Shown: positions 26,392 to 45,838, counted from the stretch's first letter. The stretch: 64,000 nucleotides of DNA from an uncultured Thermoleophilia bacterium (GCA_963741075.1 CAVUGS010000012.1:26351-90350), one strand, 5' to 3'. Notes: generated from the letters alone by a model not told the origin. Translations and numbers: made by a program.

Positions 26392-26552
26392 GCCTCGATT
26401 CTACCCATCCCCTGCTTCATCGGCAGCCGGGCGTCCGGAGTGGAGTCCGGCAGCCTGCCGCGCGTTCGAAGTGCCGCCGTGGCAGTGCGATAGAATCCCC
26501 GACTTGATGGGGCGGCCGCCGGCCGCCTCGCGTGAACGTACAGGAGCTCTCC

Positions 26553-27820
26553 GTGAAGATCGCAGTCATCGGCCTGGGCTACGTCGGCCTGCCGCTGGCG
26601 ATGGTGTTCGCCGAGTCCGGCGTCGAGGTCGTCGGCATCGAGGCCGTGGCCGCGCGGTGCGACGAGATCAACGCCGGCCGCAGCTACATCCAGGACGTCC
26701 CGAGCGAGGCGCTCAAGGCGATGGTCGACAAGGGCCTCATCCACGCCACCACCGACTACGCCGCCACCGAGGACTGCGACGCGGACATCATCTGCCTGCC
26801 GACGCCGCTCAACGCCAACCGCGAGCCGGACCTCACGCTGGTCAAGGACGCGACGGCCAAGCTGGCCGGGCACCTGCGGCGCGGCCAGCTCGTCACCCTC
26901 GAGAGCACCACCTACCCGGGCACCACGCGCGACGAGCTGGCGCCCATCCTCGAGGCCGGCTCGGGCATGACCGCCGGCGTCGACTTCCACCTCGCCTTCT
27001 CGCCCGAGCGCGTCGACCCCGGGCGCACCGACTACACCACCAAGAGCACGCCCAAGGTCGTCGGCGGGCTCACGCCGGCCTGCACGGCGCGGGCGCTGGA
27101 GGTCTACGGGCCCGCGCTCGACCACGTCGTGCCGGTCAGCACGCCCGAGGTCGCGGAGATGACCAAGCTGCTCGAGAACATCTTCCGCAGCGTCAACATC
27201 GCGCTCATGAACGAGCTCGCGATGCTCTGCGACCGCATGAAGATCGACGTGTGGGAGGTCATCGACGCCGCCGCCACCAAGCCCTTCGGCTTCATGAAGT
27301 TCCAGCCCGGGCCCGGGCCTCGGCGGCCACTGCATCCCCATCGACCCGTTCTACCTGAGCTGGAAGGCGCGCGAGTTCGACTTCTGGACGGAGTTCATCG
27401 AGCTGGCCGGCAAGGTCAACGAGAACATGCCGTACTTCTGCGTCGAGAAGCTCCACCGGGCGCTCAACACCCGCGGCAAGAGCCTCAACGGCGCCAAGCG
27501 TGCTGGTGCTGGGCGTCGCCTACAAGGCCGACATCGACGACCTGCGCGAGAGCCCGGCGCTCAAGGTCATCCGCCTGCTGCGCGAGCACGGCGCCGACGT
27601 GGACTACCACGATCCGTACTGCGCCGCGCTCCCCGAGTTCGGCCTCGAGTCGATCGACCTCGAGGAGTACCGGCGCGTCGCCGGCTACGACGCCGTCGTC
27701 ATCGTCACCGCGCACTCGGCGCTCGACTACCGCACGATCGTCCACGAGGCCGACCTGGTGGTCGACTTCCGCAACGCCACGGCCGGCATCCCGAGCGCCG
27801 GCAACGTCTGGAAACTGTAA
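26553..27820 (+). CDS. UDP-N-acetylglucosamine/hexose 6-dehydrogenase (WbpA-like; frameshifts)
   Basis: [51 protein letters not shown]. Confidence 0.92.
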
Positions 27821-27837
27821 GAGGGGAGACCCAACTC

Positions 27838-28866
27838 GTGAGCTGACAAGGTCCGCGTCGGCGTGGTCGGGCTCGGCTATTGGGGCCCGAACCTCGCGCG
27901 CAACTTCGACCGCCTGCCCGGCGCCGAGCTCGCGTACTGCTGCGACCTCGACGAGGCCAACCTGGCCAAGGCGCGCGAGCCTGTACCCGTCCACCACGGT
28001 CACCGACGACTACGCGCAGCTGCTCGCCGACGACGAGCTGGACGCCATCGTCGTCGCCACCTCGGTGCCCACCCACTACGCGCTCGGCAAGAAGGCGCTC
28101 GAGGCCGGCAAGCACACCTTCATCGAGAAGCCCATCGCGCTCAAGGCCGCCGACGCCCAGGACCTCCTGGACACGGCCGAGGAGTACGGCGTCAAGCTCA
28201 TGGTCGGCCACCTGCTCGAGTACCACCCCGCCGTCGCCAAGATGAAGGAGCTCATCGACTCCGGCGAGCTCGGCAAGGTCTTCTACGCCTACGCCAACCG
28301 CCTCAACCTCGGCAAGGTGCGCACCGACGAGAACGCCCTCTGGAGCTTCGGTCCCCACGACATCTCGGTGCTCAACTACCTCACCGGCGACGAGCCGGTG
28401 GAGGTCAGCGCCCGCGGCGAGTGCTACCTGCAGGACGACGTCGAGGACGTGGTGTTCGGCTACATCAAGTACAAGAGCGGCGTCGTCGGCCACCTGCACG
28501 TGAGCTGGCTCGACCCGCACAAGAGCCGCAAGATCACCGTGGTCGGCGAGAAGAAGATGGTCGTCTTCGACGACATGGAGTCGGAGCGCAAGATCACCGT
28601 CTACGACAAGGGCGCCACCACGACGCGCACCAAGTTCGAGACCTACGGCGAGTTCGTCACCCTGCACTTCGGCGACATCCACATCCCCAAGATCGGCAAC
28701 GACGAGCCGCTGCGCCTCGAGATGCCAGCACTTCGTCGACTGCATCGTGAACGACGAGCAGCCGCGCAGCGACGGCCGCGACGCGCTCAACGTGGTCAAG
28801 GTGCTCGACGCCATGGAGATCAGCCTGCGCGAGGGCGGCCGCCCCGTGAAGACCGCGGAGCTGTGA
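27838..28866 (+). CDS. Gfo/Idh/MocA oxidoreductase (WbpB/WlbA-like; frameshifts)
   Basis: [35 protein letters not shown]. Confidence 0.88.
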
Positions 28867-29584
28867 CGGTGGCCCTGCACGCCAGCGGCCTGGGCCACAA
28901 CCTGCTCCTCGGCGACGGCGTCGTCGTCGGCGCGGACGTGGTGTTCGGCGCCAACGTCGTCGTGTACGAGGACACCGTGATCGGCGACGGCTGCTTCATC
29001 CAGGACGGCGCCGTGCTCGGCAAGGTGCCGAGCCTCTCGCCGACCAGCACCGCCAAGCGCGGCGAGCTGCGCGCCGCTGGTGCTCGGCCCCGGCTGCGTG
29101 GTCAGCACCGGGGCCGTGGCCTACCGCGGCACCACGCTCGGCCCCGGCTGCATCCTCGGCGACTACGCCGGCGTGCGCGAGCGCTGCACCCTCGGTCGAG
29201 AAGGTCGTCGTCGGGCGCAGCAGCGTGGTCGAGAACGACACGGTGATCGGCGACTTCACCAAGATCCAGACCAACGTGTACATCACCGCGTACATGACCA
29301 TCGAGGACCGCTGCTTCATCGCCCCGTGCGTGCAGACCACCAACGACAACTTCATGGGCCGCACCGAGAAGCGCCACAAGCTGATCAAGGGCGCGACCAT
29401 CCGCCGCGGCGCCCGCGTCGGCGGCGGCGTGGTGCTCTGCCCGGCGATCGAGATCGGCGAAGAGGCGTTCATCGCCGCCGGCGCCGTGGTGACCAAGGAC
29501 GCGCCGGCCCGCAAGGTGCTCATGGGCGTGCCGGCGCGCGTCGTGCGCGACGTCTACGAGGACGAGCTGCTCGAGAACCAGTGA
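28863..29584 (+). CDS. Hexapeptide-repeat N-acetyltransferase (WbpD/WlbB-like; frameshifts)
   Basis: Left-handed beta-helix repeats, TTNDNFM, GAVVTKD, GVPARVV. Confidence 0.88.
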
Positions 29585-32545: not shown

Positions 32546-33298
32546 TCAGGGCTCCGCGAACGGAGTGCCTAGCGGAGTGGCCACCGGTGTGGCCGCGGGA
32601 GTCGACGTCGGCGTCCCGTCAGGCGTGGGAGTGCCGATGGCGTCCGGTACGACCGACGGGCTCGGGCTAGGCGTGCTCGATGGCTCGAACGGAGTCCCTG
32701 TGCCCGGCGACGCGGAAGGGTGCGGTTTCGGCTTCTCACTCCCCGTCCTCACCGCCAGCATCAGCGGGATGCGCAGCTCCTCGCTGCCCTGCGTCGCCAC
32801 GACGAGCCAGCCCGTGTACTCACTGGGCGTGACGTCCCGGGGTATTGCCAGCTGGACACGGACGGCGCTGGCTTCCCCCGGCGTGAGCAGGGATGTGTGG
32901 TTTGCCAGTTCGACCTGGTCGATCATCCCGCTCACGGAGCCGGTCACGACGAAAGTCACCTCCTGCGCCGTCGTCGCATGTAACTGAATGCGGAATACGT
33001 CGGGAGATGAGTCGTGGGTGCCCGGCGTCACGTCTCCGAAGTCCAGACACAGCACGCCATCCATGTCGAAGTACGCGATCGGCATGACCTTGGCCGCCTG
33101 CCCCGGGAAGTCCCAGTGCCGTGCCGTGGAGGTGCCCGCCACAAGGCTGCACGGACCCCCCCATGATCCCAGGGTGCCGGTGAGCGAGCCGGGCTTCGTG
33201 TCGCTGAAGTAGGCGTCCGTCTTGCTTCCCGCGTGTGCGGTGAGGGCCGCGGATAGGACCAGGCAGAGGGCCAGCACGATGAGCTTGAGCCTGATCAT
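32546..33298 (-). CDS. SipW-cognate signal peptide protein (TasA/camelysin-like) with Pro/Thr tail
   Basis: MIRLKLIVLALCLVLSAALTAHAGSKTDAYFSDTKPGSLTGT, FGDVTPG, P/T/S-rich C-terminus. ATGA-coupled to sipW. Confidence 0.75.
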   Translation of the reverse strand: MIRLKLIVLALCLVLSAALTAHAGSKTDAYFSDTKPGSLTGTLGSWGGPCSLVAGTSTARHWDFPGQAAKVMPIAYFDMDGVLCLDFGDVTPGTHDSSPDVFRIQLHATTAQEVTFVVTGSVSGMIDQVELANHTSLLTPGEASAVRVQLAIPRDVTPSEYTGWLVVATQGSEELRIPLMLAVRTGSEKPKPHPSASPGTGTPFEPSSTPSPSPSVVPDAIGTPTPDGTPTSTPAATPVATPLGTPFAEP

Positions 33299-34059
33299 GT
33301 CGTCTTCTGCCACGGTGAGCGGGGCAGCAGTTCCACAGGGAATCCCCAGCGGGCGTCTCTTGCCGGCACGGGTGTCTTCTTGCGCGGATAGCGCGACAAG
33401 TGAGCGCGGAGTTCCTCGGCCGAGCGGAAGCCGGCATGGCAGCCGGAACAGCGGAACAGGAGCCCTTCTTCGATCTGAGGCGAGCGTTGGGCCGGCGGCG
33501 GCGCTGGGTGCGGAGCGGGGACCAGCTGTGGTGCGCGGGTCTCGCTCCTTCGTCGATGCTCCGCACCACGCGCGTTGCCTATCCTGGCACCGGCGACATC
33601 GACAGGGAGGCTGTAGACGAGCCACGCGCAGATGACGGCGAGAAACAGCGAAGCGAGACCGGCGGGGTTCTTGAAGTAGACGATCCAGTAGCCGAGCATC
33701 CCGGGGGGCAGCGACGACGCCGCCGATGACCTGCGCGCGGGCAGATGGTCGAGGGATCCGCGGTGCGGTTGGCGTCCCCCTTGGTGCGCGAGCGTTGCCG
33801 TCGGCTTCTCGCTCGAGGAGACGATGCGTCACGATGCCGTTGCCGCGTGCGGTACGAGATGACCTGGCCTATCCGATAGTCGCCTTCACGCACGATGACC
33901 GCGCTCTTCGGACGGGATCGTCGGGCTCATGGAGCCGGTGTGGACGACGTACACGCTTGTACGGCAACACCCCGCACGCGAGCAGGATCAGCGGCACGAC
34001 GAACACCAGGACGGCGAACCCCAAGAGATACCTTTGCGGCGCTCTTGCTTCACGGTCAT
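33295..34059 (-). CDS. sipW: ER-type signal peptidase I (SipW-like) with C-terminal extension (frameshifts)
   Basis: TM + VVHTGSMSPTIP, GQVISY, IVTHRL, TKGDANRTADP, then a second TM. Confidence 0.82.
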
Positions 34060-34810: not shown

Positions 34811-35365
34811 GAAATGTACCCCCTTCAGAGGGCCGGGTGGCCCTTTCCCATGGATCCCGCCGCCGTGGTGGTGCCTGCGCTGTACCCCTACCAGCAGGCG
34901 CCGGCGACGTCAGACTCAGTGTGCGGGACGACCACCCCCCTCGTTCACTCACCGTCGATCGTTGGGCACGCAGCGGCACGACCCGGGGGCCGACGCAGGT
35001 TCGAGGTGCGGCCTGTCTGGCCGCAGGAAGTGCCCTCCTCTCGCGCTGATGCAGATAGTCTGCCCGACGGCATGCAGCGCTAGGACAACCATAGTTGGAG
35101 CGCCAGACGGATGCAATGACATCCGTGTGCCCGGAGTTGGCTACGACTGCGTAGCAGCCGGCGGTCGATGCGCACGAGCTGAGCCGGCCACTCGGATCTT
35201 CGGCGCCGCCGGTCGTTCCGCGCCAAGCCTATCATCGGGTTTGGGGTCGGACGGCCGGTGGGCACCTTTCCCGCGGGCGGCAGAGAGGCCGCCCGGCGCG
35301 TTACACTGGAGCCCGCGCCGCACCGTCTGCGCTCCCCGACTATGCGATCCTCCAGGAGGCCGAGG

Positions 35366-35530
35366 ATGACCAAGTACATCTGCACCGTCTGCGACTACGT
35401 GTATGACCCCGAGGTGGGCGATCCCGACAGCGGCGTCGCGCCGGGCACGGCGTTCGAGGACCTGCCGGACGACTGGGTCTGCCCCGAGTGCGGCGTGGAC
35501 AAGGAAGAGTTCGAGGCCGTCGAGGACTGA
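35366..35530 (+). CDS. Rubredoxin
   Basis: [14 protein letters not shown]...[11 protein letters not shown], 54 aa, SD AGGAGG. Confidence 0.95.
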
Positions 35531-35542
35531 CGGCCTGCGGCC

Positions 35543-36767
35543 CTACCGGCCTGCGTTCGCCGGTACGGGCTTCAGCCCCTCGGCGAACGCGATCAGCTCC
35601 TGGCGGGTGAGCGCGCCGGTGACGAAGACCGCCCGGCGCGCTCCGCGCGACGAACAGCGACGGCCCACTCTCCTGATACCAGGTGATGGCCGTCGCGCCC
35701 TTGAGCGCTCCGTACTGCAGCGTCGTCTGCTGACGCGAGAGCTTTCCGGTGCCGGCCTCGCTCTGCCAGTCGCGGACGGCGGCCAGCGAGCGCAGCGTGG
35801 CAGGTCCGACCTGTTCGACGGTGAACTGCGAGAGGCCGCGCGTGTACAGCTGCAGGACCGCGGTCCCGCGCAGGCCGACCGGCAGATTCCACACCTTGTC
35901 GCTGATCCAGCTCACGGGGCGAAGCTCGGCGGGCACGGTCGCGACGGCCCTGAGCTCGTAGCCGTCCGGCGCCAGGCCTGAGACGAGAGGGGCGTACCCG
36001 GCGGTGCGGCCCGCCGCCGCCGGGGACTCCTCGTAGGCCGCCGTGTCCCCGATCGTCTCCGCCTCAGTACCCGCCGGCACGTCGACCCTGTAGGTCGTGC
36101 CGGCCGGCGGCGGCGCGTCCCAGTCGACCGTCGCCGTGAACGTGTCCTCGCCGTCGCTGTACCAGGTGACGATGCCGGTCTGCTGGTCCACGACGACGTC
36201 GATCAGCTTGCCGCCCATCGTCATCGCCGCGCGCCAGGTGGCGCGGTCGCCGTCCTTGATCGGCTTGATGCCGACGGCCTCGTCGCCGTCCTCCACCGCC
36301 GTGAGCACGACCGCGGCCAGGCCCTGGTAGTCCAGCGGGCTGTGCGTCGCGACGCGCCAGACGGGCGGCCACGCGCCGACGGTGCGGGTCAGCGCGGCGA
36401 AACGTCCGCCGTTGCCGCCGAGGGTCGTCTCGGTGCGCGTGGCCGCATCGTAGGCCGACTGCGGCGGATGGTAGCTGAAGACCGTCTCGCCCTCGGGGAG
36501 CGCAGCTCTGCCGCCGGCGTTCCCACCGGCGACCGCGCTGAAGGCTCCGTCCTGTCCGACCTCGCCCGAGGACGGCCGCCAGGTGTACGTCCCCGCGATC
36601 CCGGTGACCACGGGTGCGGTCGCCGCCGGGCCCGAGCGCAGGAAGAACATCCACGCGAGGGCGAAGACGATGGCGAGCGCGACGAGGGTCACGGCGAAGC
36701 TCGGCGGGCGTCGGTTCACCCACGCCGCGCCGACCCTCCGGCTCATCCTCTGGGGCGGGGTCGCCAT
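35543..36767 (-). CDS. Membrane-anchored LolA/RseB-fold-like protein (frameshift near 35645)
   Basis: One TM, then a beta-rich ectodomain. C-terminal half is similar to the 47404-48900 product (PDGY/PRGY, YTRG/YRRG, GALTRQEL/GDLTRDEL). Confidence 0.6.
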
Positions 36768-37119: not shown

Positions 37120-37831
37120 ATGCCGTCACGTCGGGCGCTCGCCGCCCTTCTCGTCCTGCTCGTCGCGCTCGTCGCCGGCGCGGCCGTGGGCGCTTCGGCC
37201 GCCCGCGCCGTCACGCGCGACGAGCTCATGAAGACGAGCCTGCTCGCCCTGCAGTGCGCCATCGAGAAGAGCGGCTCCGCGCACATGTACGTCTACCCTC
37301 ACCCGAGCTCCGTCTCGCCGACGGGCGGCCTCGCCAGCGTCTTCTGGCCGCGCGACCCGTGGACCGGCGGGCGTCTCACGCCCGGCGCCTCGCAGGGGCA
37401 CTACGCCTACGTTCGCGCGACGGACTACCGGAGCTACCGGCTCACCGGCTACCTCAGCGGCGGAAGGACCTTCGTCGTCACCGGCGGCATGACGCACACG
37501 CCGATGCTGGCCTACGACCATCGCGGCAAGGAGGGGCTCAACCTCCTCTTCCAGTACGTCAAGATGTGGTCGCGCAGCGCACGACGGGCGTCTGCCCACG
37601 GCGGCGATGGTCACGCGCGAGGGATCCGTGGGCCGGCAGCGGCGCGACCTGCTCTGGCCCAGCAACCCGTGGGACCACGGGGCCATGGAGCAGCGCGCCG
37701 ATCGCGGCTCCTTCGGCTACGTCCGCTCGGCCGACGGCAAGACGTTCACCCTGAACCTTCATCAGGCCCTGAAAGAGGACTACGTCCTCCAGGGCACGGC
37801 AGCACAATCGACCGCGGGAGACAGACCGTGA
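37120..37831 (+). CDS. Secreted protein with two WPxNP pilin-head-like domains (frameshift near 37590)
   Basis: Signal peptide ending AARA. Domains contain YP..WPRDPWTG and WPSNPWDH. Colinear with the 40064-41095 product. Confidence 0.8.
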
Positions 37832-39297
37832 AGCGGAACCTGTTCGCCGGCCGCCGCAGGAGTGGCGGCCTCAAGTTGGACGTGTTCACCGAGGACGAGA
37901 TCCAGGACATCCACCTGTCGACGCTCGAGGTGCTCGAGCGCACCGGCGTGTGGGTGGAGCTGGACGAGGCGCTCGACATCTACAGCGACGGCGGGTGCGT
38001 CGTCGACCGCGAGTCGCACATCGTGCGCATCCCGCCGCACGTGGTCGAGGACGCCATCGCCAGCGCGCCGCCGAGCGTGGTGCTCTGCGGCCGCGACCCG
38101 AGGAACGACATCTGCCTGGAGCCGGGCCGCGTGGGCTTCAGCAACTTCGGCGAGGGCATCCAGGTCATCGACCCGCGCACGGGCGAGCTGAGGGCCTCGA
38201 CGAAGAAGGACCTCGGAGAGATCGCCCGTCTGGTGGACGCGCTGGACGAGGTCGACGTGTTCGAGATGGCCGTCGTCTCCAGCGACCAGCCGCCGGCGTC
38301 GTTCTCGCTGCACAACCACGAGGCGGCCATCGTCAACCAGACGAAGCCGATCTCGGGCGGCGCCCAGGACGGCGACGCCGTCCACCGCACGGTGGACATG
38401 CTCGCCGCCGTCCAGGGCAGCAAGGACGCCGTGCGCGAGCGGCCGATGATGGTCATGGGCACCTGCCCGGTCAGCCCGCTCAAGCTCGTCAAGGACTTCT
38501 GCGAGATCGTCATCGAGTCCGCCCGCGTCGGCCTGCCGAGCTGCGTGCTCAGCATGGCCATGGCCGGCGGCTCGAGCCCGGTGACGCTCGCCGGCACGCT
38601 GGTCACCCACAACGCCGAGGTGCTCGCCGGCATCGTCCTCGGCCAGCTCACCGAGCGCGGCAGCAAGCAGCTCTACGGCTCGTCGACGACGGCCATGGAC
38701 CTGCGGCTCGTCGCGGCCTCGGTCGGCACGCCGGAGTGCGCGCTGATCAGCGCCGGCGCGGCGCAGCTCGCCAGGCAGTACCGCCTGCCGAGCTACATCG
38801 CCGGTGCGTAGGGGGACAGCAAGCTCAGTGACGTGCAGACCGGTCACGAGAAGACCCTCACGGCCCTCATGGCAGCGTTGGCAGGGACCAACCTGATCTA
38901 CGGCCTGGGAATGATCGAGTCGGGCGTCACCTTCGATTACGCGCAGCTGGTCATCGACAACGAGATCGCGCGCATGGTCAAGCACGTCGTCGGCGGCGTG
39001 CGCGTCGACGACGAGTCTCTGGCGGTGGACGACATCGCCGCCGTCGGTTCGTTCGGCGACTTCCTCAGCCTGGACGCGACGATGCGCCACATGCGCGACA
39101 CGTCGCAGCCGGAGCTCATCGACCGCCGCGTGCGCGAAGACTGGGAGGCGCGCGGCTCCAGCGACATGTACCAGCGCGCGATGGAGAAGGCGCGCGGCCT
39201 CCTGGAGACGCACCAGCCCGAGCCGCTGCCGGACGACGTGCTCAGGCAGGTGCGGAGCATCGTCGACAAGGCGGACCGGGAGCGGGCGACCGACTGA
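37828..39297 (+). CDS. mttB: Trimethylamine:corrinoid methyltransferase with in-frame TAG (codon 328), predicted pyrrolysine
   Basis: YIAGA-TAG(38809-11)-GDSKLSDVQTGHEKT continues in frame to TGA 39297. 489 aa, MttB motifs on both sides of the TAG. Confidence 0.9.
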
Positions 39298-39342: not shown

Positions 39343-40044
39343 TCAGCCGCCCGGCGATGTGCTCAGCTGGCCGAGCACCGGGAGCGCGCCGAGGGTGGTC
39401 GACCACCAGCCGTTGGTCAGCATCACCCTGAGCGCGTAGGTCGCCCCGCCGCCCGTGTAGCTGAAGCAGCCCACGGTGGTCCCGGCGGCCATGTCTGCGC
39501 CGGTCCAGGGGTTCTTGGGCCAGATGAAGCTCGTGCCGAAGCCTGTGGCAGTGACGACGTCGGGGGTTGGGTACGCGCCGGCATGTGACGCCGCGTAGGC
39601 CTCGACGTAGCGTTGCAGCAGCAACAGGTTCTGCTTCGATGCCGTGTTGCGCTCCGGTTTGAACCAGGCGGGGACGCCGCCCGTCAGCGGCCAATTGCCG
39701 CTCGACAGGTGGACGACGAACCTGTACGTCGCGCCGCTGGCGCTCGGGGTGTACGTGTAGGTGCCTCGCGCGGTGCCGGGCCCCATGATCCTTCCGGTCC
39801 AGGGGTTGGACGGCCAGATGCTCGTCGAGCCGGGGAGCCCGCCGCCCTTCTTGACCATCGACTTCGGAGGATAGATGAAGCGGTTGTTCTGTCCGTAGTC
39901 GTTGATGTACTTCTGGATGAGGAGCGCGCCGGCCTGCACCTGCTTGTCGACGAAGCTCACGGCCTCGGCGCGGGGCGCCGCGGCGGCGAGGAGCAGGGCG
40001 AGCACGGCGGTCGCAAGGACGACGGCGATCATGCGTCTGGTCAC
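39343..40044 (-). CDS. Secreted protein with two WPxNP pilin-head-like domains
   Basis: Signal peptide ending AEA. YPP..WPSNPWTG and YPT..WPKNPWTG. Confidence 0.82.
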   Translation of the reverse strand: MTRRMIAVVLATAVLALLLAAAAPRAEAVSFVDKQVQAGALLIQKYINDYGQNNRFIYPPKSMVKKGGGLPGSTSIWPSNPWTGRIMGPGTARGTYTYTPSASGATYRFVVHLSSGNWPLTGGVPAWFKPERNTASKQNLLLLQRYVEAYAASHAGAYPTPDVVTATGFGTSFIWPKNPWTGADMAAGTTVGCFSYTGGGATYALRVMLTNGWWSTTLGALPVLGQLSTSPGG

Positions 40045-40063
40045 GGGGTGCCTCCTGTGGTGG

Positions 40064-41095
40064 TCAGGGCTCCGGGGTGCCGGAGCCGCGCGCCGGCGCC
40101 GCAGGCGACGGCGCGGTGCCGCCGGCCTGGAAGTCGCCGGAGTGAAGATGGACGGTGAGGGTGAAGACGCCGGCGGCGCCGGGTGCGTACGTGAAGGCGC
40201 CGGGGCCGGTGCCCGGCAGCATCGCGGCGCCGCTGCTCGGGTCCTGCGGCCAGTCGGGATGCGCCGCGCCGACGGCGGCCGTCGGCGACATCTCGGTGAC
40301 CCTGGGCAGGGCGCCGGCGTGCTGCAGCGCCCACTGGTCGACGTAGCCCTTGAGGATCCGCCCGCTGCGGCGCAGGATCTCGTCCTCCAGGCTGGCCAGC
40401 AGCTGCTGCCAGGGGCTGGTCCTGATGGTCCCGGTGAGCACGTAGTCGCCCTTGAGGGCGCGGTGCAGGCGCAGCCGGTACGACGACCTGTCGGGGGCGA
40501 CCGCGTACGAGAACGAGCCGCGGTCGCGGCGCTGCACCATGACGGAGTGGTTCCACGGATTGCTCGGCCAGTAGTGGTGCTTCGGCTCGTTGCCCACGGG
40601 GCCGTCCGCGCGCACCTCACCCGGCATCGGGTACACGCCGTCGTGCGCGGCGGCGTAGTCCTCAACGTACTGACGGATGAGGTTGATGCCCTCTTCGCTG
40701 CGGTGGTCGTAGGCGAGCTTGACGAAGTGTGGCATGCCTCCGGAGAGGACGAAGGTGCGGCCGCCCTCGAGATAGCCGACGAGGTGGTAGCGGCGGCGGT
40801 CGCGGTTCACCGTGTAGCGGAAGTGCCCGCGACTGGTGCCCGGCGTCAGGTCGGAGCCGGTCCAGGGATCGTCGGGCCACCACGAGCCGCCGAGGTGTCC
40901 GGCGCGGACGGACGGGCCCCGCGGGTACGTGAAGAAGCGCTCGGCGCCCTGCCGGTCGATGAGGCCGCGCAAGGCCATCACGGCCTGGCGCATCTCGTCG
41001 TCGGGGGAGGCGGCGCGGGCCGGCGCGGCAGCGCCCGCGCCGACGCAGGCCGCCGCGAGCAGCGCGGCGCAGAGGATGAGCGTGAGTCGGATCAT
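40064..41095 (-). CDS. Secreted protein with three WPxNP pilin-head-like domains
   Basis: Signal peptide ending ARA. WPDDPWTG, WPSNPWNH, WPQDPSSG. Confidence 0.82.
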   Translation of the reverse strand: MIRLTLILCAALLAAACVGAGAAAPARAASPDDEMRQAVMALRGLIDRQGAERFFTYPRGPSVRAGHLGGSWWPDDPWTGSDLTPGTSRGHFRYTVNRDRRRYHLVGYLEGGRTFVLSGGMPHFVKLAYDHRSEEGINLIRQYVEDYAAAHDGVYPMPGEVRADGPVGNEPKHHYWPSNPWNHSVMVQRRDRGSFSYAVAPDRSSYRLRLHRALKGDYVLTGTIRTSPWQQLLASLEDEILRRSGRILKGYVDQWALQHAGALPRVTEMSPTAAVGAAHPDWPQDPSSGAAMLPGTGPGAFTYAPGAAGVFTLTVHLHSGDFQAGGTAPSPAAPARGSGTPEP

Positions 41096-41253
41096 GTGCT
41101 TGGTGATGGCCCCTTCTTCCTCTCCAGTGTCGCCGCAGGTGCGAGACGGGTCAACTGCGCCGGACATTCGCGGCCACGCGCCTGCTGATACGATTCGCCC
41201 CGGGCGCCGCGGAGCCTGCGGCCGCGCATCACTCTTGAGGCAAGGAGTTGCCG

Positions 41254-42640
41254 GTGGAAGCGAAGATCCCGACCCGTATGGGCGACGGGTTCATGGTCGA
41301 GATGTCGCGCAGCGAGCTGCGCGCCGATCTGGAGGACGCGACGCAGGCGGCGGCGCGCAAGGCCAAGGTCCCGCCGCTCGCGCAGGACGAGCTCGACCAC
41401 CTCCTGGACATCTACGCCTCGCGCGCCGCGTTCACCGCCGTCGACATCGGCGACCAGGTGGTCCTCAGCTGCGACGGCGGCGGCAGCAAGATGACCGGCA
41501 CCGACCTCCTCGACCTGCTCGAGAGCGAGCAGCGCCTGGGCCAGGACATCCTCGAGCTCTGGCACATCGAGTACAGCTACAAGGCCATCAAGACGATCCT
41601 GCCGTTCCAGCAGCAGGTGATGCAGAACTGCCAGCTGATGATGACGGCGCCGGTGCAGTACGGCGCGCAGCCCAACCTCGCCTTCTACAGCAAGCCCGAC
41701 GGACCGGCGGAGAACTGGTTCGAGCTGCTGCCGCGCGGCGACATCGCCGGCGCCCGCGCGGCCATCGACGAGGCCATGGATCACGCCACCAAGGACTTCA
41801 TCTACGTGGGCGAGGGCATGCTGGACGCCGGCGCCGACGGCATGGACTTCGACACCACCGGCGGCGCCGGCGACGCCGACTTCTTCAGCACGCTCCGCGC
41901 GGTGAAGCACCTGCGCGAGCACTACCCGGACGCCGGCATCGAGGTCGGCATGGCCGGCGAGTTCGTGATCGGCGTCCACGGCGAGCTCGAGTGGGACGGC
42001 CGCCGGCTGGCCGGGCTCTGGCCGAAGGAGCAACTCGAGGTGTGCCAGGACGCCGGCGCCACCATCTTCGGGCCGGCGGTGAACATCCGCACCGGCAAGA
42101 GCTGCGCCTGGAACGCGGCCTACTCGATCACGGTGACCAAGCCGTGCATGGACGTCGCCCGCATCCCCGTGCACCCCAACGTGGGCGAGGGAGTGGGCGG
42201 CGTGCCGGTGAACGGCTACCCGCCCGAGGACGCGGCGTCCCGGGCGGCCAAGGCGCACGTCGACATCCTCAAGTGCGACGGGTTGTAGGTGGGCTCGGGT
42301 GACTCCAGAGGCATGGACGTCACCCACGCGCTCGCCGCGGGCATGGGCGGGATGCGCACGGCCGGAGACCTGGTCGCGCGCATGCAGATGGCCCGCGGGA
42401 TGCGTCTGGACGAGGCGAAGCGGATACGTGGCCGAGAGGCTCGGCTGCACCGTCCGCGACCTCAGCGACAGCTACGCGATGGAGCAGATCCGCGGCGAGA
42501 AAGGCCTGGGCCGGATCCTCGACCACTCCAACCTGCACCCGGGCGAGCCGAACGCGATGATGGCCAAGTTCCGCATCGCCGAGCTGCTCGGCGTGCCGAT
42601 CAGGTCGGTGGAACGCTTTCGGGAGCTGGCGGGGCTGTGA
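41254..42640 (+). CDS. mtbB: Dimethylamine:corrinoid methyltransferase with in-frame TAG (codon 345), predicted pyrrolysine; 1-nt frameshift near 42423
   Basis: RMGDG, YGAQPNL..PDGP.EN, GADGMDFDTTG, GMAGEF, LAGLWP, CDGL-TAG(42286-88)-VGSGD..GM..AGDLVARMQ match the MtbB family. SD AAGGAG. Confidence 0.88.
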
Positions 42641-42739: not shown

Positions 42740-43123
42740 ATGAAGCGGATCACGAGCGTGGTGCTCGTCGCGTTGCTGGCGCTCGGCGCCGCGGCGGCTC
42801 TCGGCGGCTGCGGTCTGCAGGACCAGGCCGTGGAGAACACCAGCGGCAAGATCGACGTGGCCAAGGACGCCGCCGTCAAGGCGCAGCTGCTGATGATCAA
42901 GACGGGCATCCAGGCGTACATCGCGACGAGCAGCACGCCGCCGGCCGACGCGTCGCAGGCGACGCTGGGCAACTTCGTGAGCCCCTGGCCCACGAACCCC
43001 TTCTCCAACAAGCCGATGAAGCCGGGAGGGGGCGCGGGCGACTACGTCTACGCGCCCGGCGCCGGCGCCGCGTACACGCTGTCGGTCAATCTCTCCGACG
43101 GGACGCAGTACACGGCGCCGTGA
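42740..43123 (+). CDS. Lipoprotein with a single WPxNP pilin-head-like domain
   Basis: Lipobox LGGC. WPTNPFSNKPMKPGGGAGDYVY. Confidence 0.82.
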   Translation: MKRITSVVLVALLALGAAAALGGCGLQDQAVENTSGKIDVAKDAAVKAQLLMIKTGIQAYIATSSTPPADASQATLGNFVSPWPTNPFSNKPMKPGGGAGDYVYAPGAGAAYTLSVNLSDGTQYTAP

Positions 43124-43174: not shown

Positions 43175-44290
43175 GTGGTGGGGTTCTCGGGGAGCGGGTG
43201 GCGCGTGAGACTCGGGCTGGTGGCGCTGGGCGTCGCCTGCCTGATCGGCATCTCCATCCCCATCGCCATGGGCGGCGACTCCACGCCCACGTGGCAGCTC
43301 AAGAGCTACTACAGCCGCGGCGTGGACCGGAGCTTCAAGGCCGACCTCTACGAGGAGATGCCCAAGGTGCCGCGCGTGCTCGTCTTCGGCGGCTCGCGCA
43401 GCCTGCGCATGGACCCGGCCACCATCAAGCGCAAGACCGGCCTCACGGCGTTCAACTTCGGCGTCCACAACGGCCGCCCCGAGGACGCCTGGGCGGTCAC
43501 CGACTGGGCGCTGGACAGCCATCCCGACAAGCCCCCGGCGGTCATCTGGTGCATGCAGGCGACCACGCTGGCCGACGTACCCATGAACCCCGGCCTCATC
43601 GTCGACGAGCGCCTCTCCCAGGCGTTCCCGCAGTCACTCATCGACGCCAAGATGAGCTGGGCCATGAAGCAGCCCAAGCGCAACATCCTCTCCGGCCGCC
43701 GGTACGGCTTCGACGGCATGCTGTGGTGGAACAGCTATGACGCCAAACGCCAGGCGGGCCTCACGCTGCAGCGGTCCCTCGACGGCTACCTCGACGCCGA
43801 CATGCTGGCCAGGGCCGGCAACGGCAAGATCCCGCGCGACACGCGGTCCATGGCGTACTTCGTGCGGACCATCCGTCTGCTCAACAAGCACCGCATCAAG
43901 CCGCTCATCGTGATCATGCCGTACCATCCGCGGGCGCTCAGCGCGTTCCTCTCGGTGGGCTGGGGCGTCAAGGAGAGGTGGCTGAGGACCTACCTCTCCA
44001 AGCTGTCCGAGCACCTGGACTTCAGGGTGCTGAACTGCCTGCGGATCAGCACCTTCGGCGGCACGGCGAACGGGTTCTACGACGGCGCGCACCTCACCGC
44101 GGACAACTCGCGGCGGCTCATCCGCTACTGCATCGCGCACGCGCCGTCGTGCTTCAGGCTGCCCCCGCCGCCGAAGCCCACGCCGAGCCCGTCGCCGAGC
44201 TCGAGCGCGAGCCCGGCGCCGCTGGTGCCCGCCCCGGCGTACACGCCGGTGCCCGAGGACACGAGCGCCCCGGCGGACTTCCTCGAGTAG
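43175..44290 (+). CDS. Exported SGNH/DltD-AlgX-like protein with Pro/Ser tail
   Basis: N-terminal TM/signal, VLVFGGSRS (block I), FYDGAHL (DxxH). TAG stop. Confidence 0.6.
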   Translation: MVGFSGSGWRVRLGLVALGVACLIGISIPIAMGGDSTPTWQLKSYYSRGVDRSFKADLYEEMPKVPRVLVFGGSRSLRMDPATIKRKTGLTAFNFGVHNGRPEDAWAVTDWALDSHPDKPPAVIWCMQATTLADVPMNPGLIVDERLSQAFPQSLIDAKMSWAMKQPKRNILSGRRYGFDGMLWWNSYDAKRQAGLTLQRSLDGYLDADMLARAGNGKIPRDTRSMAYFVRTIRLLNKHRIKPLIVIMPYHPRALSAFLSVGWGVKERWLRTYLSKLSEHLDFRVLNCLRISTFGGTANGFYDGAHLTADNSRRLIRYCIAHAPSCFRLPPPPKPTPSPSPSSSASPAPLVPAPAYTPVPEDTSAPADFLE

Positions 44291-44344: not shown

Positions 44345-45721
44345 TCAGGCGCCGATCAGCTTCTTGACGCAGGTCGCCCGCTTGCTCGGGCGCCCCGTCC
44401 GCGCCTCCACGTCGTCGGCGCTCCCCATGGCCTTGAGCGCCGCGTTCACGCCGATCCAGCGCAGCGGCTCGGGCTCCCAGGCCCTGGAGCGGTGGTTGAC
44501 CCAAGGCAGCCGGGTGAGCTCCGTCTCCTGTCGGAGGATGAGGTCGCGCAGCGTGCGGGCGGCGAGGTTCGTCGTCGACACGCCGTCGCCGACGTAGGCG
44601 CCGGCCCAGGCCATGCCGGAGTCGCGGTCCAGGCCGACCGAGGTGTACCAGTCGCGGGGGGCCGCGACCGCCCCTCCCCAGTGGTGGGTGACCTTCGCGT
44701 CGCCGATGGCGGGGAAGAGCTCACCGAGCAGGGAGCGGAGGTGGTCGCGGACGGCCGGGTCGCGTTCGTAGGCCTCGCTCAGGCGGGAGCCGAAGTGATA
44801 CGGGGCGCCGCGCCCGCCGATGGCGATGCGGCCGTCCTCGGTGCGCATGGCGTAGAAGATGAGGAAGCGGAAGTCGCCGAAGACCTCGCGCCGGGACCAG
44901 CCGACCTCGTCCCAGAAGGCCGCGGGGAGCGGTTCCGTGCCGATCATCAGCGAGTAGATCGGCACCAGCGTGCGCTCGTAGCCGGGGAGCTCGGGCGTGA
45001 ACGCCTCGGTGGCGCGCACGACGACGTCGGCGCGCACGTCGCCAAGCGCGGTGGCGGCGAGGTGGGGCTCGAGCCTGGTGACCGGGGTGTGCTCGTAGAT
45101 GGGCACCCCCAGGCCTTCGACGACGTCGGCGAGCCCGCGGGCCAGCCGGGCCGGGTCCACACAGGCGCCGTGCGGCGTGTACGTGGCGCCCAGACACCCG
45201 GCCACCTTGACGCGCTCGCGCATGTCGGCGGCGCCGAGCAGGACGTAGTCCTCCTCGCCGAAGCCCCACGAGCGCTCGTACTCGATCTCCCTGCGGGCGC
45301 GCAGCAACTGGACCGGCGTGAGTGCGAGGTCCATCTGGCCGCCGAGGTGGAAGCGCGCGTCGATGCCCTCTTCGTCCACGACGCGCGCGACCTCGTACAC
45401 GGTGCGGTGCAGGGCGCGCTGCTGGTCGACGACCGCCTGCCGCCCGTGCGTCCGGGCCGCCAGCTCACGGGAGCCGGGGAAGGTGGTGTGGCACCAGCCG
45501 CCGTTGCGTCCCGAGGCTCCGAAGCCGGCGATCTCGCGCTCGAGCACGGCCACGCGCAGGTGCGGGTCGGCCTTCTTGAGGTAGTAGGCCGTCCACAGAC
45601 CGGTGTAGCCGGCGCCGACGATGGCGACATCCACGTCGGTGTCGCCGGGGAGCGAGGGACGCGGGGCGAGCTCGCCGGGGATGCCGTCGAGCCACATGCT
45701 GCGCGCGCGGTAGTCGGTCAT
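44345..45721 (-). CDS. FAD-dependent oxidoreductase (PuuB/DadA-like)
   Basis: DVAIVGAGYTGLWTA, GASGRNGG, HHWGG, YVGDGV. Confidence 0.88.
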   Translation of the reverse strand: MTDYRARSMWLDGIPGELAPRPSLPGDTDVDVAIVGAGYTGLWTAYYLKKADPHLRVAVLEREIAGFGASGRNGGWCHTTFPGSRELAARTHGRQAVVDQQRALHRTVYEVARVVDEEGIDARFHLGGQMDLALTPVQLLRARREIEYERSWGFGEEDYVLLGAADMRERVKVAGCLGATYTPHGACVDPARLARGLADVVEGLGVPIYEHTPVTRLEPHLAATALGDVRADVVVRATEAFTPELPGYERTLVPIYSLMIGTEPLPAAFWDEVGWSRREVFGDFRFLIFYAMRTEDGRIAIGGRGAPYHFGSRLSEAYERDPAVRDHLRSLLGELFPAIGDAKVTHHWGGAVAAPRDWYTSVGLDRDSGMAWAGAYVGDGVSTTNLAARTLRDLILRQETELTRLPWVNHRSRAWEPEPLRWIGVNAALKAMGSADDVEARTGRPSKRATCVKKLIGA

Positions 45722-45838
45722 GTCGGGCTCCTTCGAGGGTGGACCGATGCTAACAAACGCGTCGACGGTGCGGCAGACCGCCGAGTTTGCCCGGTGGAAC
45801 AAAGAGTGCGACGGCGACTCGCCCGGGAGGTGAGCACG

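What the first reader, a model, noticed from the sequence alone, without database searches (positions are those of the whole stretch)
37828..39297. MttB with an in-frame amber codon at the pyrrolysine site in an apparent actinobacterium
Seen: the ORF stops at TAG 38809-11 (YIAGA*). The same frame continues GDSKLSDVQTGHEKT...LVIDNE to TGA 39297, giving a full 489-aa MttB with TAG at codon 328. Established: Methanosarcina MttB (~495 aa) carries pyrrolysine at about residue 334, in the context AG-x-O-x-D-[A/S]K-x2-D-x-Q-x-G-HEK. Inference: this organism decodes UAG as Pyl and demethylates trimethylamine. That is best known in methanogens, some Firmicutes and Desulfobacterota, and is unusual for a ~70% GC actinobacterium-like genome. 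Local errors are indels, so a chance stop exactly at the Pyl site is unlikely.
Basis: partly seen in the sequence, partly recalled or inferred. Interest (0 to 1): 0.88.

Follow-up and report, generated by a model that had tools for sequence, protein, structure and literature searches.

The report
Pyrrolysine-encoding trimethylamine methyltransferase in Thermoleophilia
This is a real trimethylamine methyltransferase gene whose in-frame TAG encodes the 22nd amino acid pyrrolysine, in an uncultured soil actinobacterium (class Thermoleophilia) that carries the full pyrrolysine machinery. The trait is rare in the phylum, near-universal in this bacterium's family, and already reported for related genomes.

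Summary
Window 37828-39297 (+) is one 489-codon MttB frame with a single TAG at 38809-11.

- **Pyl site.** The TAG aligns exactly to Pyl334 of the solved Methanosarcina barkeri MttB. It is invariant in 80 aligned genes despite synonymous change around it.
- **Family.** The protein passes NCBIfam's Pyl-MttB equivalog cut-off and keeps the catalytic Gly, Met and Tyr.
- **Machinery.** The same genome (a 3.3-Mb indel-rich MAG) has tRNA-Pyl(CUA), split bacterial-type pylSc and pylSn, and pylB, pylC and pylD. In the closest relative this cluster and the mttB ortholog lie on one 2-Mb contig.
- **More Pyl genes.** The genome has about seven TAG-mttB paralogs, at least five TAG-mtbB (one in this window) and a TAG-mtmB.
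- **Distribution.** PylSc and TAG-mttB co-occur in 77 of 401 sampled Thermoleophilia, confined to two families. A phylum-wide sample of 401 gave 2 hits.
- **UAG stays ambiguous.** RF1 is kept and TAG ends about 23% of confident ORFs.

The kind is already published (PylRS in two Actinobacteria; Stordalen Actinobacteriota expressing Pyl mttB/mtbB), so this is a new member of a known kind.

Unexplained extra: fixed rare codons form a small hairpin 66 nt after the TAG.

The parts
37828..39297 (+). mttB: pyrrolysine-type trimethylamine:corrinoid methyltransferase, 489 codons. GTG start at 37828, TGA stop at 39295-97.
   Evidence: PF06253 scores 312 bits. TIGR02369 trimeth_pyl equivalog scores 699 bits against a cut-off of 525. 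It scores 401.9 bits to M. barkeri MttB 7xcm/7xcl over residues 2-484. G108, M243 and Y358 correspond to the catalytic Gly110, Met249 and Tyr364.
38809..38811 (+). In-frame TAG, the pyrrolysine codon (codon 328).
   Evidence: It aligns to X334 (Pyl334) of PDB 7xcl. It is invariant in 80 of 80 aligned sequences.
38809..38908 (+). Match to Rfam RF02510, PYLIS_3 ('pyrrolysine insertion sequence mttB').
   Evidence: 64.8 bits against a gathering score of 38, model positions 1-100, starting exactly at the TAG. The model largely reflects coding conservation, and a function is unproven.
38875..38892 (+). Synonymously constrained 11-mer GCGTTGGCAGG (38875-38885) and small hairpin GUUGG[CAGGGA]CCAAC (38877-38892), 66 nt 3' of the TAG.
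   Evidence: Leu351 TTG and Ala352 GCA are fixed in 50 of 50 non-redundant genes. They are the only fixed rare codons in about 490 columns. On 111 distinct sequences, 90.8% of cells pair and 24 cells changed on both sides, against 4.8 in shuffles. Non-Pyl paralogs use CTC at that column.
41248..42640 (+). mtbB: pyrrolysine-type dimethylamine methyltransferase. TAG at 42286-88, an assembly +1 frameshift near 42420, and the stop at 42638-40 in the shifted frame.
   Evidence: PF09505 scores 443 bits over profile positions 13-399. The C-terminus continues in the next frame. The ortholog in L007 is intact with the same TAG.
42286..42385 (+). Match to Rfam RF02509, PYLIS_2 ('pyrrolysine insertion sequence mtbB'), starting at the mtbB TAG.
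   Evidence: 60.5 bits against a gathering score of 36.

Best explanation
The ORF is a functional mttB gene of an uncultured Thermoleophilia bacterium, and its UAG at codon 328 is translated as pyrrolysine.

How it most likely works:
1. PylB, PylC and PylD make pyrrolysine from two lysines.
2. The split bacterial-type synthetase (PylSc plus PylSn) charges the amber-suppressor tRNA-Pyl(CUA).
3. Pyl-tRNA competes with release factor 1 at UAG, so decoding is ambiguous rather than reassigned.
4. Full-length MttB uses the pyrroline imine of Pyl328, helped by Tyr358 and the Gly108 carbonyl, to bind and activate trimethylamine.
5. MttB passes one methyl group to the Co(I) of a corrinoid protein encoded elsewhere in the genome.
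6. The TAG-containing mtbB and mtmB genes would remove the remaining methyl groups.

Shown here: gene identity, the position of the Pyl codon, a complete pyl gene set, clade-wide co-occurrence, and retention of RF1 and of TAG stops.

Inferred: actual Pyl insertion, trimethylamine as the substrate of this particular paralog, which corrinoid partner it uses, and the fate of the methyl group.
For: - Frame and TAG.
- TIGR02369 equivalog at 699 bits against a cut-off of 525.
- TAG aligned to X334 of 7xcl, with G108, M243 and Y358 conserved.
- TAG invariant in 80 sequences and present once in every one of the 150 listed TIGR02369-level matches from the 83 Thermoleophilia genomes that have one.
- tRNA-Pyl(CUA) is the only CUA tRNA among 48 found. 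It has a 6-bp anticodon stem, a 3-nt variable loop, a 5-nt D-loop and a G discriminator.
- PylSc scores 323.6 bits against 178 and is closest to D. hafniense PylSc 3dsq/2zni.
- PylSn 125.7, PylC 343, PylD 197.6 and PylB 323.5 bits.
- In the closest relative, whose MttB is 97% identical, the cluster amidase-pylSc / corrinoid / rSAM / pylSn / pylT-pylD-pylC-pylB is contiguous. It lies on the same 1,999,427-bp contig as the mttB ortholog.
- Other Pyl genes: 7 PF06253 matches with an in-frame TAG, about seven TAG-mttB paralogs, at least 5 TAG-mtbB and a TAG-mtmB.
- PylSc and TAG-mttB co-occur in 77 genomes, occur alone in 6 each, and are both absent in 312 of 401.
- RF1 is present and TAG accounts for 221 of 949 confident stops.
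- Rfam PYLIS_3 and PYLIS_2 hits start at the two TAGs.
- Published expression of Pyl mttB/mtbB in related Actinobacteriota MAGs.
Against: - There is no protein-level evidence of Pyl here.
- The genome is a 67%-complete MAG with many indel errors.
- pylB is split by a frameshift and scores just below its cut-off, as it does in the relative.
- No corrinoid protein gene lies on the window's contig, so the partner is unassigned.
- With about seven Pyl-MttB paralogs, the substrate of this copy need not be trimethylamine itself.
Confidence: 0.92

Rival explanations
1. Nonsense pseudogene or assembly error: the TAG is a recent mutation or a base-calling error in a decaying mttB copy.
For: The assembly is error-prone, with frameshifts in mtbB, pylB, mtmB and prfA. 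Reads could not be checked.
Against: The errors seen are indels, not substitutions. The same TAG occurs at the same column in 79 other loci from about 50 independent MAGs, with synonymous variation around it. It also occurs in every one of the 150 listed TIGR02369-level matches from the 83 genomes that have one. Coding signal continues after it at GC3 0.94. It sits exactly on Pyl334.
Confidence: 0.01
2. The TAG is real but not read as pyrrolysine. Either translation stops, giving a 327-aa product with or without a separately made C-terminal piece, or a near-cognate tRNA inserts a standard amino acid.
For: RF1 is present and TAG is a common stop, so some termination at this codon is expected. 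No proteomic data are available.
Against: A complete pyl cassette with a canonical tRNA-Pyl is present. It co-occurs with TAG-mttB across 401 genomes. The C-terminal 161 codons carry the catalytic Tyr358 and the dimerisation loop, and there is no conserved start signal after the TAG. Pyl is the catalytic residue in the solved enzyme (PMC9842639).
Confidence: 0.04
3. Pyl is inserted, but this paralog acts on a methylated amine other than trimethylamine. The seven Pyl-MttB copies would have diverged in substrate.
For: About seven TAG-containing MttB paralogs, roughly 60-65% identical to each other, sit in a genome of about 3.3 Mb. This copy has no adjacent corrinoid gene. It is flanked by exported proteins of unknown function.
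Against: It exceeds the equivalog cut-off built for TMA methyltransferases. It keeps all residues named as catalytic in M. barkeri MttB. Characterised members that use quaternary amines lack Pyl (PMC10805028; PMC8604678, abstract listed).
Confidence: 0.12

Closest known systems
Methanosarcina barkeri MttB (PDB 7xcl/7xcm/7xcn; Pyl334)
   Same: Same fold family and length, scoring 401.9 bits over residues 2-484. The UAG is at the homologous position. Gly110, Met249 and Tyr364 are conserved as G108, M243 and Y358.
   Different: The host is bacterial with about 70% GC. Thr111 is replaced by Glu109. There is no adjacent mttC. The conserved TTG-GCA hairpin after the UAG is not matched in M. barkeri: the codon for Ala358 there is GCC, judging by the primer printed in PMC9842639.
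Bacterial Pyl system of Desulfitobacterium hafniense (pylT, split pylSc/pylSn, pylBCD)
   Same: The synthetase is split. PylSc is most similar to D. hafniense PylSc (3dsq/2zni, 317 bits). TAG remains a frequent stop and RF1 is kept.
   Different: The gene order differs. pylB-pylC-pylD-pylT is followed by an unknown gene, pylSn, a radical-SAM gene and a corrinoid-protein gene. pylSc is convergent at the far end. The phylum is Actinomycetota.
Actinobacteriota MAGs of Stordalen Mire reported to express Pyl-encoding mttB and mtbB (Ellenbogen et al. 2023, PMC10805028), and the two PylRS-positive Actinobacteria of Guo et al. 2022 (PMC9630628)
   Same: Same phenomenon in the same phylum. MAG bog_752 from that site carries homologs 63-64% identical, with the TAG (L049 and L080).
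   Different: In the passages I read, the first paper identified Pyl genes by truncation at the amber codon. Searches of its text for pylS, pylB and tRNA found nothing. Here the full pyl cassette, its family-wide distribution and its co-occurrence with TAG-mttB are documented.
Rfam PYLIS_3 (RF02510) and PYLIS_2 (RF02509)
   Same: Both models match above their gathering scores, starting exactly at the two TAGs. The mtbB hairpin in PYLIS_2 contains the fixed GGA codon.
   Different: The consensus structure of PYLIS_3 does not contain the GUUGG/CCAAC hairpin found here. The source paper saw no common structure for mttB (PMC3639795).

Membership tests
Pyl-dependent trimethylamine methyltransferase MttB (NCBIfam TIGR02369; Pfam PF06253) | Whole-protein HMM score above the curated equivalog cut-off. 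| tested here: met
   699 bits against a cut-off of 525. PF06253 scores 312 bits.
Pyl-dependent trimethylamine methyltransferase MttB (NCBIfam TIGR02369; Pfam PF06253) | In-frame UAG at the position of Pyl334 of M. barkeri MttB. | tested here: met
   Codon 328 aligns to X334 of 7xcl.
Pyl-dependent trimethylamine methyltransferase MttB (NCBIfam TIGR02369; Pfam PF06253) | Conserved Gly110 and Tyr364 (reported 100% conserved in Pyl-MttBs), and Met249. | tested here: met
   G108, Y358 and M243 in the alignment. Residue roles come from PMC9842639.
Pyl-dependent trimethylamine methyltransferase MttB (NCBIfam TIGR02369; Pfam PF06253) | Cognate corrinoid protein (MttC) encoded next to it. | tested here: not met
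   None of the 25 TIGR02370 matches lies on contig C12. The two above cut-off are on C13 and C19. Adjacency is usual but does not define the enzyme.
Pyl-dependent trimethylamine methyltransferase MttB (NCBIfam TIGR02369; Pfam PF06253) | Trimethylamine-dependent methylation of Co(I)-corrinoid protein. | not testable with these tools
   This needs an enzyme assay.
Pyrrolysine-decoding organism (pyl cassette) | tRNA-Pyl with a CUA anticodon and the atypical architecture: 6-bp anticodon stem, 3-nt variable loop, small D-loop. | tested here: met
   C19:227364-227436, sequence and fold. The same gene is present in the relative.
Pyrrolysine-decoding organism (pyl cassette) | Pyrrolysyl-tRNA synthetase (PylSc, plus PylSn in bacteria). 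| tested here: met
   PylSc scores 323.6 bits against 178 and 317 bits to D. hafniense PylSc. PylSn scores 125.7 bits against 51.
Pyrrolysine-decoding organism (pyl cassette) | Biosynthesis genes pylB, pylC and pylD. | tested here: met
   PylC scores 343 bits against 248. PylD scores 197.6 bits against 150. PylB scores 323.5 bits against 348, with only profile positions 107-345 in one frame, which is an apparent assembly frameshift.
Pyrrolysine-decoding organism (pyl cassette) | Pyrrolysine detected in protein. | not testable with these tools
   This needs mass spectrometry.
Rfam PYLIS_3 (RF02510) | Covariance-model score above the gathering threshold immediately 3' of the UAG. | tested here: met
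   64.8 bits against 38 at 38809-38908. The single-sequence fold is no better than shuffles (z = 0.28).

The most novel reading that the evidence does not exclude
In a large bacterial clade of Pyl-mttB genes (Thermoleophilia, Desulfobacterota and unassigned metagenome lineages), selection holds a cis-acting RNA signal around the Pyl codon. The signal would be a TTG codon immediately 5' of the UAG whenever that residue is Leu, plus a 5-bp hairpin built from otherwise rare codons (GCG-TTG-GCA) 66-84 nt 3' of it. mtbB has a counterpart, a fixed GGA inside the PYLIS_2 hairpin. The signal would bias UAG towards pyrrolysine insertion, or protect the message, in organisms that keep RF1 and use TAG for about a quarter of their stops. 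That would make it a working bacterial PYLIS, which current opinion holds to be unnecessary.
Probability: 0.2. Interest if true: 0.75.

Novelty: new member of a known kind. Interest (0 to 1): 0.42.

Why it matters
- **Ecology.** A whole family of soil and peat Thermoleophilia (74 of 80 sampled genomes with PylSc, 75 with TAG-mttB) appears to be a genuine pyrrolysine user. It has unusually many Pyl methyltransferase genes. This lineage is therefore a likely major bacterial consumer of methylamines in anoxic soils, competing with methylotrophic methanogens.
- **Annotation.** Standard gene calling truncates these genes at the TAG, and about a dozen genes per genome are affected.
- **Tools.** The family offers high-GC, bacterial-type PylRS/tRNA-Pyl pairs that may interest genetic-code-expansion work.
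- **Mechanism.** The synonymous-site constraint near the UAG gives a concrete, mutable target for asking whether bacteria use mRNA context to separate 'sense' from 'stop' UAG.

Tried and rejected
- **tRNA or Rfam hit next to pylSc on contig C29.** Nothing was found. pylT turned out to lie at the end of contig C19. The relative's contiguous locus shows that the C19 end and the C29 start are the two halves of one cluster.
- **PYLIS-like fold right after the UAG.** The single-sequence fold has z = 0.28. RNAalifold on 20 sequences gave 0 compensatory pairs. I rejected a large conserved structure.
- **Long-range pairing of UUGGCAGG with CCUGCCGA at codons 319-321.** It is fully complementary in only 10-23 of 50 sequences, so it is not supported.
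- **TTGGCA as a sigma-70 -35 box, a sigma-54 -24 box or an internal start.** I considered these by eye. No matching -10 or -12 element and no suitably spaced start codon is present, so I rejected them.
- **Pfam on the flanking ORFs** (37120-37827, 39343-40665, 40064-41167, 42740-43123, 43175-44290, 35340-36767, 32546-33832). No family matched.
- **Literature search for 'pyrrolysine' plus 'Thermoleophilia'.** Only an unrelated soil paper came up.

Full report
**1. Observation**

Window 37828-39297 (+) translates as a single frame with one internal stop (YIAGA*GDSKLSDVQTGHEKT) and a terminal TGA. The internal stop is TAG at 38809-11. Reading it through gives 489 residues with the TAG as codon 328. 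A GGGAGA motif 6 nt upstream supports the GTG start at 37828. Third-position GC is 0.90 before the TAG and 0.94 after it, so coding signal continues.

**2. What the gene is**

- The read-through protein matches Pfam MTTB at 312 bits.
- It matches NCBIfam TIGR02369, the equivalog model for the pyrrolysine-type trimethylamine methyltransferase, at 699 bits against a curated cut-off of 525.
- Against solved structures, the best hit is M. barkeri MttB (7xcm/7xcl, 401.9 bits over residues 2-484). In 7xcl the unknown residue X334 (pyrrolysine) is aligned to codon 328.
- The structural paper names Gly110, Met249 and Tyr364 as the key residues around Pyl334 (PMC9842639). They correspond to G108, M243 and Y358 here. 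Thr111 is Glu109, but that contact is made by the main chain.

**3. More than chance**

A scan of one genome per species found 564 relatives. The best 79 loci are almost all uncultured Thermoleophilia or Actinomycetota MAGs, plus a few Desulfobacterota, at 59-98% identity. In the alignment of the 123 nt around the site, T-A-G is invariant in all 80 sequences while adjacent third positions vary freely. Rfam's PYLIS_3 model matches at 38809-38908, starting on the TAG, at 64.8 bits against a gathering score of 38.

**4. The machinery**

The window lies on contig C12 of a 3.33-Mb, 29-contig MAG estimated at 67% complete.

- ARAGORN finds 48 tRNAs. One is tRNA-Pyl(CUA), at C19:227364-227436, and no other has a CUA anticodon.
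- Its fold has a 6-bp anticodon stem, a 3-nt variable loop, a 5-nt D-loop, one base between the acceptor and D stems, and a G discriminator. From my own knowledge, these are the hallmarks of tRNA-Pyl.
- Immediately upstream lie pylB (323.5 bits; cut-off 348; only profile positions 107-345 are in one frame, an apparent indel), pylC (343 against 248) and pylD (197.6 against 150).
- Downstream lie pylSn (125.7 against 51), a radical-SAM gene and a corrinoid-protein gene (226 against 215). The contig then ends.
- pylSc (323.6 against 178) sits at the very start of contig C29. It is most similar to the D. hafniense PylSc structures (317 bits).

In the closest relative, genome G331, contig C3 has the same length (1,999,427 bp) as CAWCSR010000003.1, which carries the 97%-identical MttB. 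There the whole set is contiguous: amidase, pylSc, corrinoid protein, rSAM, pylSn, an unknown gene, pylT, pylD, pylC, pylB. The mttB ortholog lies about 277 kb away on the same contig. This rules out a binning artefact and shows that the C19 end and the C29 start are one locus.

**5. Other Pyl genes in the genome**

- PF06253 gives 43 matched pieces, roughly 25 loci. Seven contain an in-frame TAG.
- A second Pyl gene lies in this window. It is mtbB, about 41248-42640, with its TAG at 42286-88 and 443 bits to PF09505. Its C-terminus is displaced by a +1 assembly indel near 42420. The ortholog in L007 is intact. Rfam PYLIS_2 matches at its TAG.
- At least four more TAG-mtbB copies exist.
- A TAG-mtmB lies on C13 next to a corrinoid gene (context GMGL-TAG-GPETT).

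**6. How UAG is used**

Among 949 long ORFs with strong coding signal, the stops are TGA 684, TAG 221 and TAA 44. This count is approximate because of the indels. prfA (RF1) is present at 434 bits against a cut-off of 423. UAG is therefore not reassigned. As in other Pyl bacteria, it is both a stop and a Pyl codon.

**7. Distribution**

- In 401 genomes drawn evenly from the class, PylSc is found in 83. These are 45 of 49 in the same genus, 29 of 31 others in the same family, and 9 in a second family.
- TIGR02369-level MttB is also found in 83, and all of the 150 matches listed carry exactly one TAG.
- The two sets share 77 genomes. Six have only one and six only the other, mostly incomplete MAGs. 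The remaining 312 have neither.
- Two small (1.7-1.8 Mb), 98%-complete genomes of the same genus lack both, which suggests loss.
- In 401 genomes drawn from the whole phylum, only 2 have PylSc.

**8. Comparison with the literature**

- Guo et al. 2022 list PylRS in two Actinobacteria (PMC9630628).
- Ellenbogen et al. 2023 report that some Actinobacteriota MAGs at Stordalen Mire express Pyl-encoding mttB and mtbB, judged by truncation at the amber codon. Searches of their text for pylS, pylB and tRNA found nothing (PMC10805028).
- MAG bog_752 from that site is among the homologs here (L049 and L080).

The phenomenon is therefore known. What this analysis adds is the complete cassette, its unusual gene order, its near-universality in one Thermoleophilia family, and the copy numbers.

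**9. An unexplained extra**

I made a codon alignment of 50 non-redundant Pyl-mttB genes (below 90% nucleotide identity). The lowest synonymous variability in the gene is at codons 348-357. Only two columns of about 490 have a rare codon fixed, and they are adjacent. They are Leu351 TTG (50/50; TTG is 6.9% of Leu codons) and Ala352 GCA (50/50; GCA is 5.9% of Ala codons). Ala350 is GCG in 49 of 50.

- In the own genome, GCNTTGGCAGG occurs six times. Four of those are in TAG-mttB paralogs, exactly 22 codons after the TAG.
- Non-Pyl paralogs with Leu at that column use CTC.
- A metagenome pattern scan added about 120 more loci with GC from 0.43 to 0.73. Over 129 non-redundant genes, TTG-GCA occurs in 92.
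- The bases can form GYUGG[CAGGNR]CCARC, whose 3' arm is fixed by the protein (Ala/Thr354-Asn355).
- On 111 distinct sequences, 90.8% of cells pair, against 86.2 ± 0.4 in shuffles. Twenty-four cells changed on both sides, against 4.8 ± 1.9. The double changes include G-C to A-U (14) and U-A to C-G (5; TTG becomes CTG exactly where Asn AAC becomes AGC or GGC).
- Caveat: the double changes may trace to a few events and partly follow GC content. A 5-bp stem is also weak.
- Sequences that look archaeal by protein motif lack the hairpin. The PYLIS_3 consensus does not contain it. The source paper saw no common structure in mttB.
- In mtbB (75 non-redundant genes), the only fixed rare codons in 110 columns are Leu -1 (TTG 66, TTA 6, CTG 2) and Gly +26 (GGA 74/74). 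The latter lies inside the PYLIS_2 hairpin.
- In mttB, a Leu at position -1 is always TTG or TTA. The one mtmB also reads TTG-TAG.

I cannot say what this does. A link to UAG decoding is a hypothesis only.

**10. Verdict**

The gene is a new member of a known kind. Interest is moderate, because the phenomenon has already been reported in related MAGs. It is raised somewhat by the family-wide distribution and by the synonymous-site signal near the Pyl codon.

Noticed in passing
window 41248-42640 (+), TAG at 42286-88: A second Pyl gene: dimethylamine methyltransferase mtbB with the amber codon at its own Pyl site. It has a +1 assembly frameshift near 42420. Rfam PYLIS_2 matches at 42286-42385.
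   Followed up: yes
window 38875-38892 (+), and the homologous position in L007-L085 and L098 onward: GCG-TTG-GCA, 22-24 codons after the Pyl codon, is fixed in 50 of 50 diverse Pyl-mttB genes although TTG and GCA are rare codons there. The bases form a 5-bp hairpin with some double changes. Non-Pyl paralogs and archaeal-like genes lack it.
   Followed up: partly
mtbB codon -1 and codon +26 (window 42283-85 and 42364-66); mttB loci; G000:C13:20108-20113: A Leu directly before the Pyl UAG is TTG or TTA, almost never CTN, in mttB, mtbB and the one mtmB. mtbB also has Gly+26 fixed as GGA (74/74), followed by GAT-CTG.
   Followed up: partly
G000:C19:224000-230672 plus G000:C29:1-2002; L097 10204-19982: The pyl cluster has an unusual layout. 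pylB-pylC-pylD-pylT comes first, then an unannotated roughly 310-aa gene on the other strand, pylSn, a radical-SAM gene and a corrinoid-protein gene. pylSc is convergent at the end, next to a cell-wall amidase. In the window's genome the cluster is cut by a contig break.
   Followed up: partly
whole genome G000 (e.g. C26:214403-232429, C2:219321-222259, C9:165563-172200): Very large MttB-superfamily expansion: 43 matched pieces, roughly 25 loci, mostly non-Pyl, with several tandem arrays. There are also about 15 corrinoid-protein genes.
   Followed up: no
window 37120-37827 (+), 39343-40665 (-), 40064-41167 (-), 42740-43123 (+): mttB and mtbB are flanked and separated by paralogous exported proteins with a repeated WPxDPW/WPxNP...PG...Y.Y motif and no Pfam match. 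The arrangement is conserved in relatives.
   Followed up: no
genomes G002 and G014 (same genus): Two small (1.7-1.8 Mb), 98%-complete genomes of the same genus lack both pylSc and Pyl-mttB. This suggests loss of the trait in a reduced lineage.
   Followed up: no
window 26508-29246; G000:C29:44821-45872; G000:C13:19521-20810: Many genes are broken by single-base indels (UDP-glucose dehydrogenase-like ORF, prfA, mtmB, pylB). This probably explains the 67% completeness estimate. Gene-level absences in this MAG should not be trusted.
   Followed up: partly
window 35258-35530 (+) and 44345-45730 (-): A rubredoxin (88 bits) lies upstream and a DAO-family FAD oxidoreductase (186 bits) lies downstream of the methyltransferase genes. 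Any link to methylamine metabolism is unknown.
   Followed up: no
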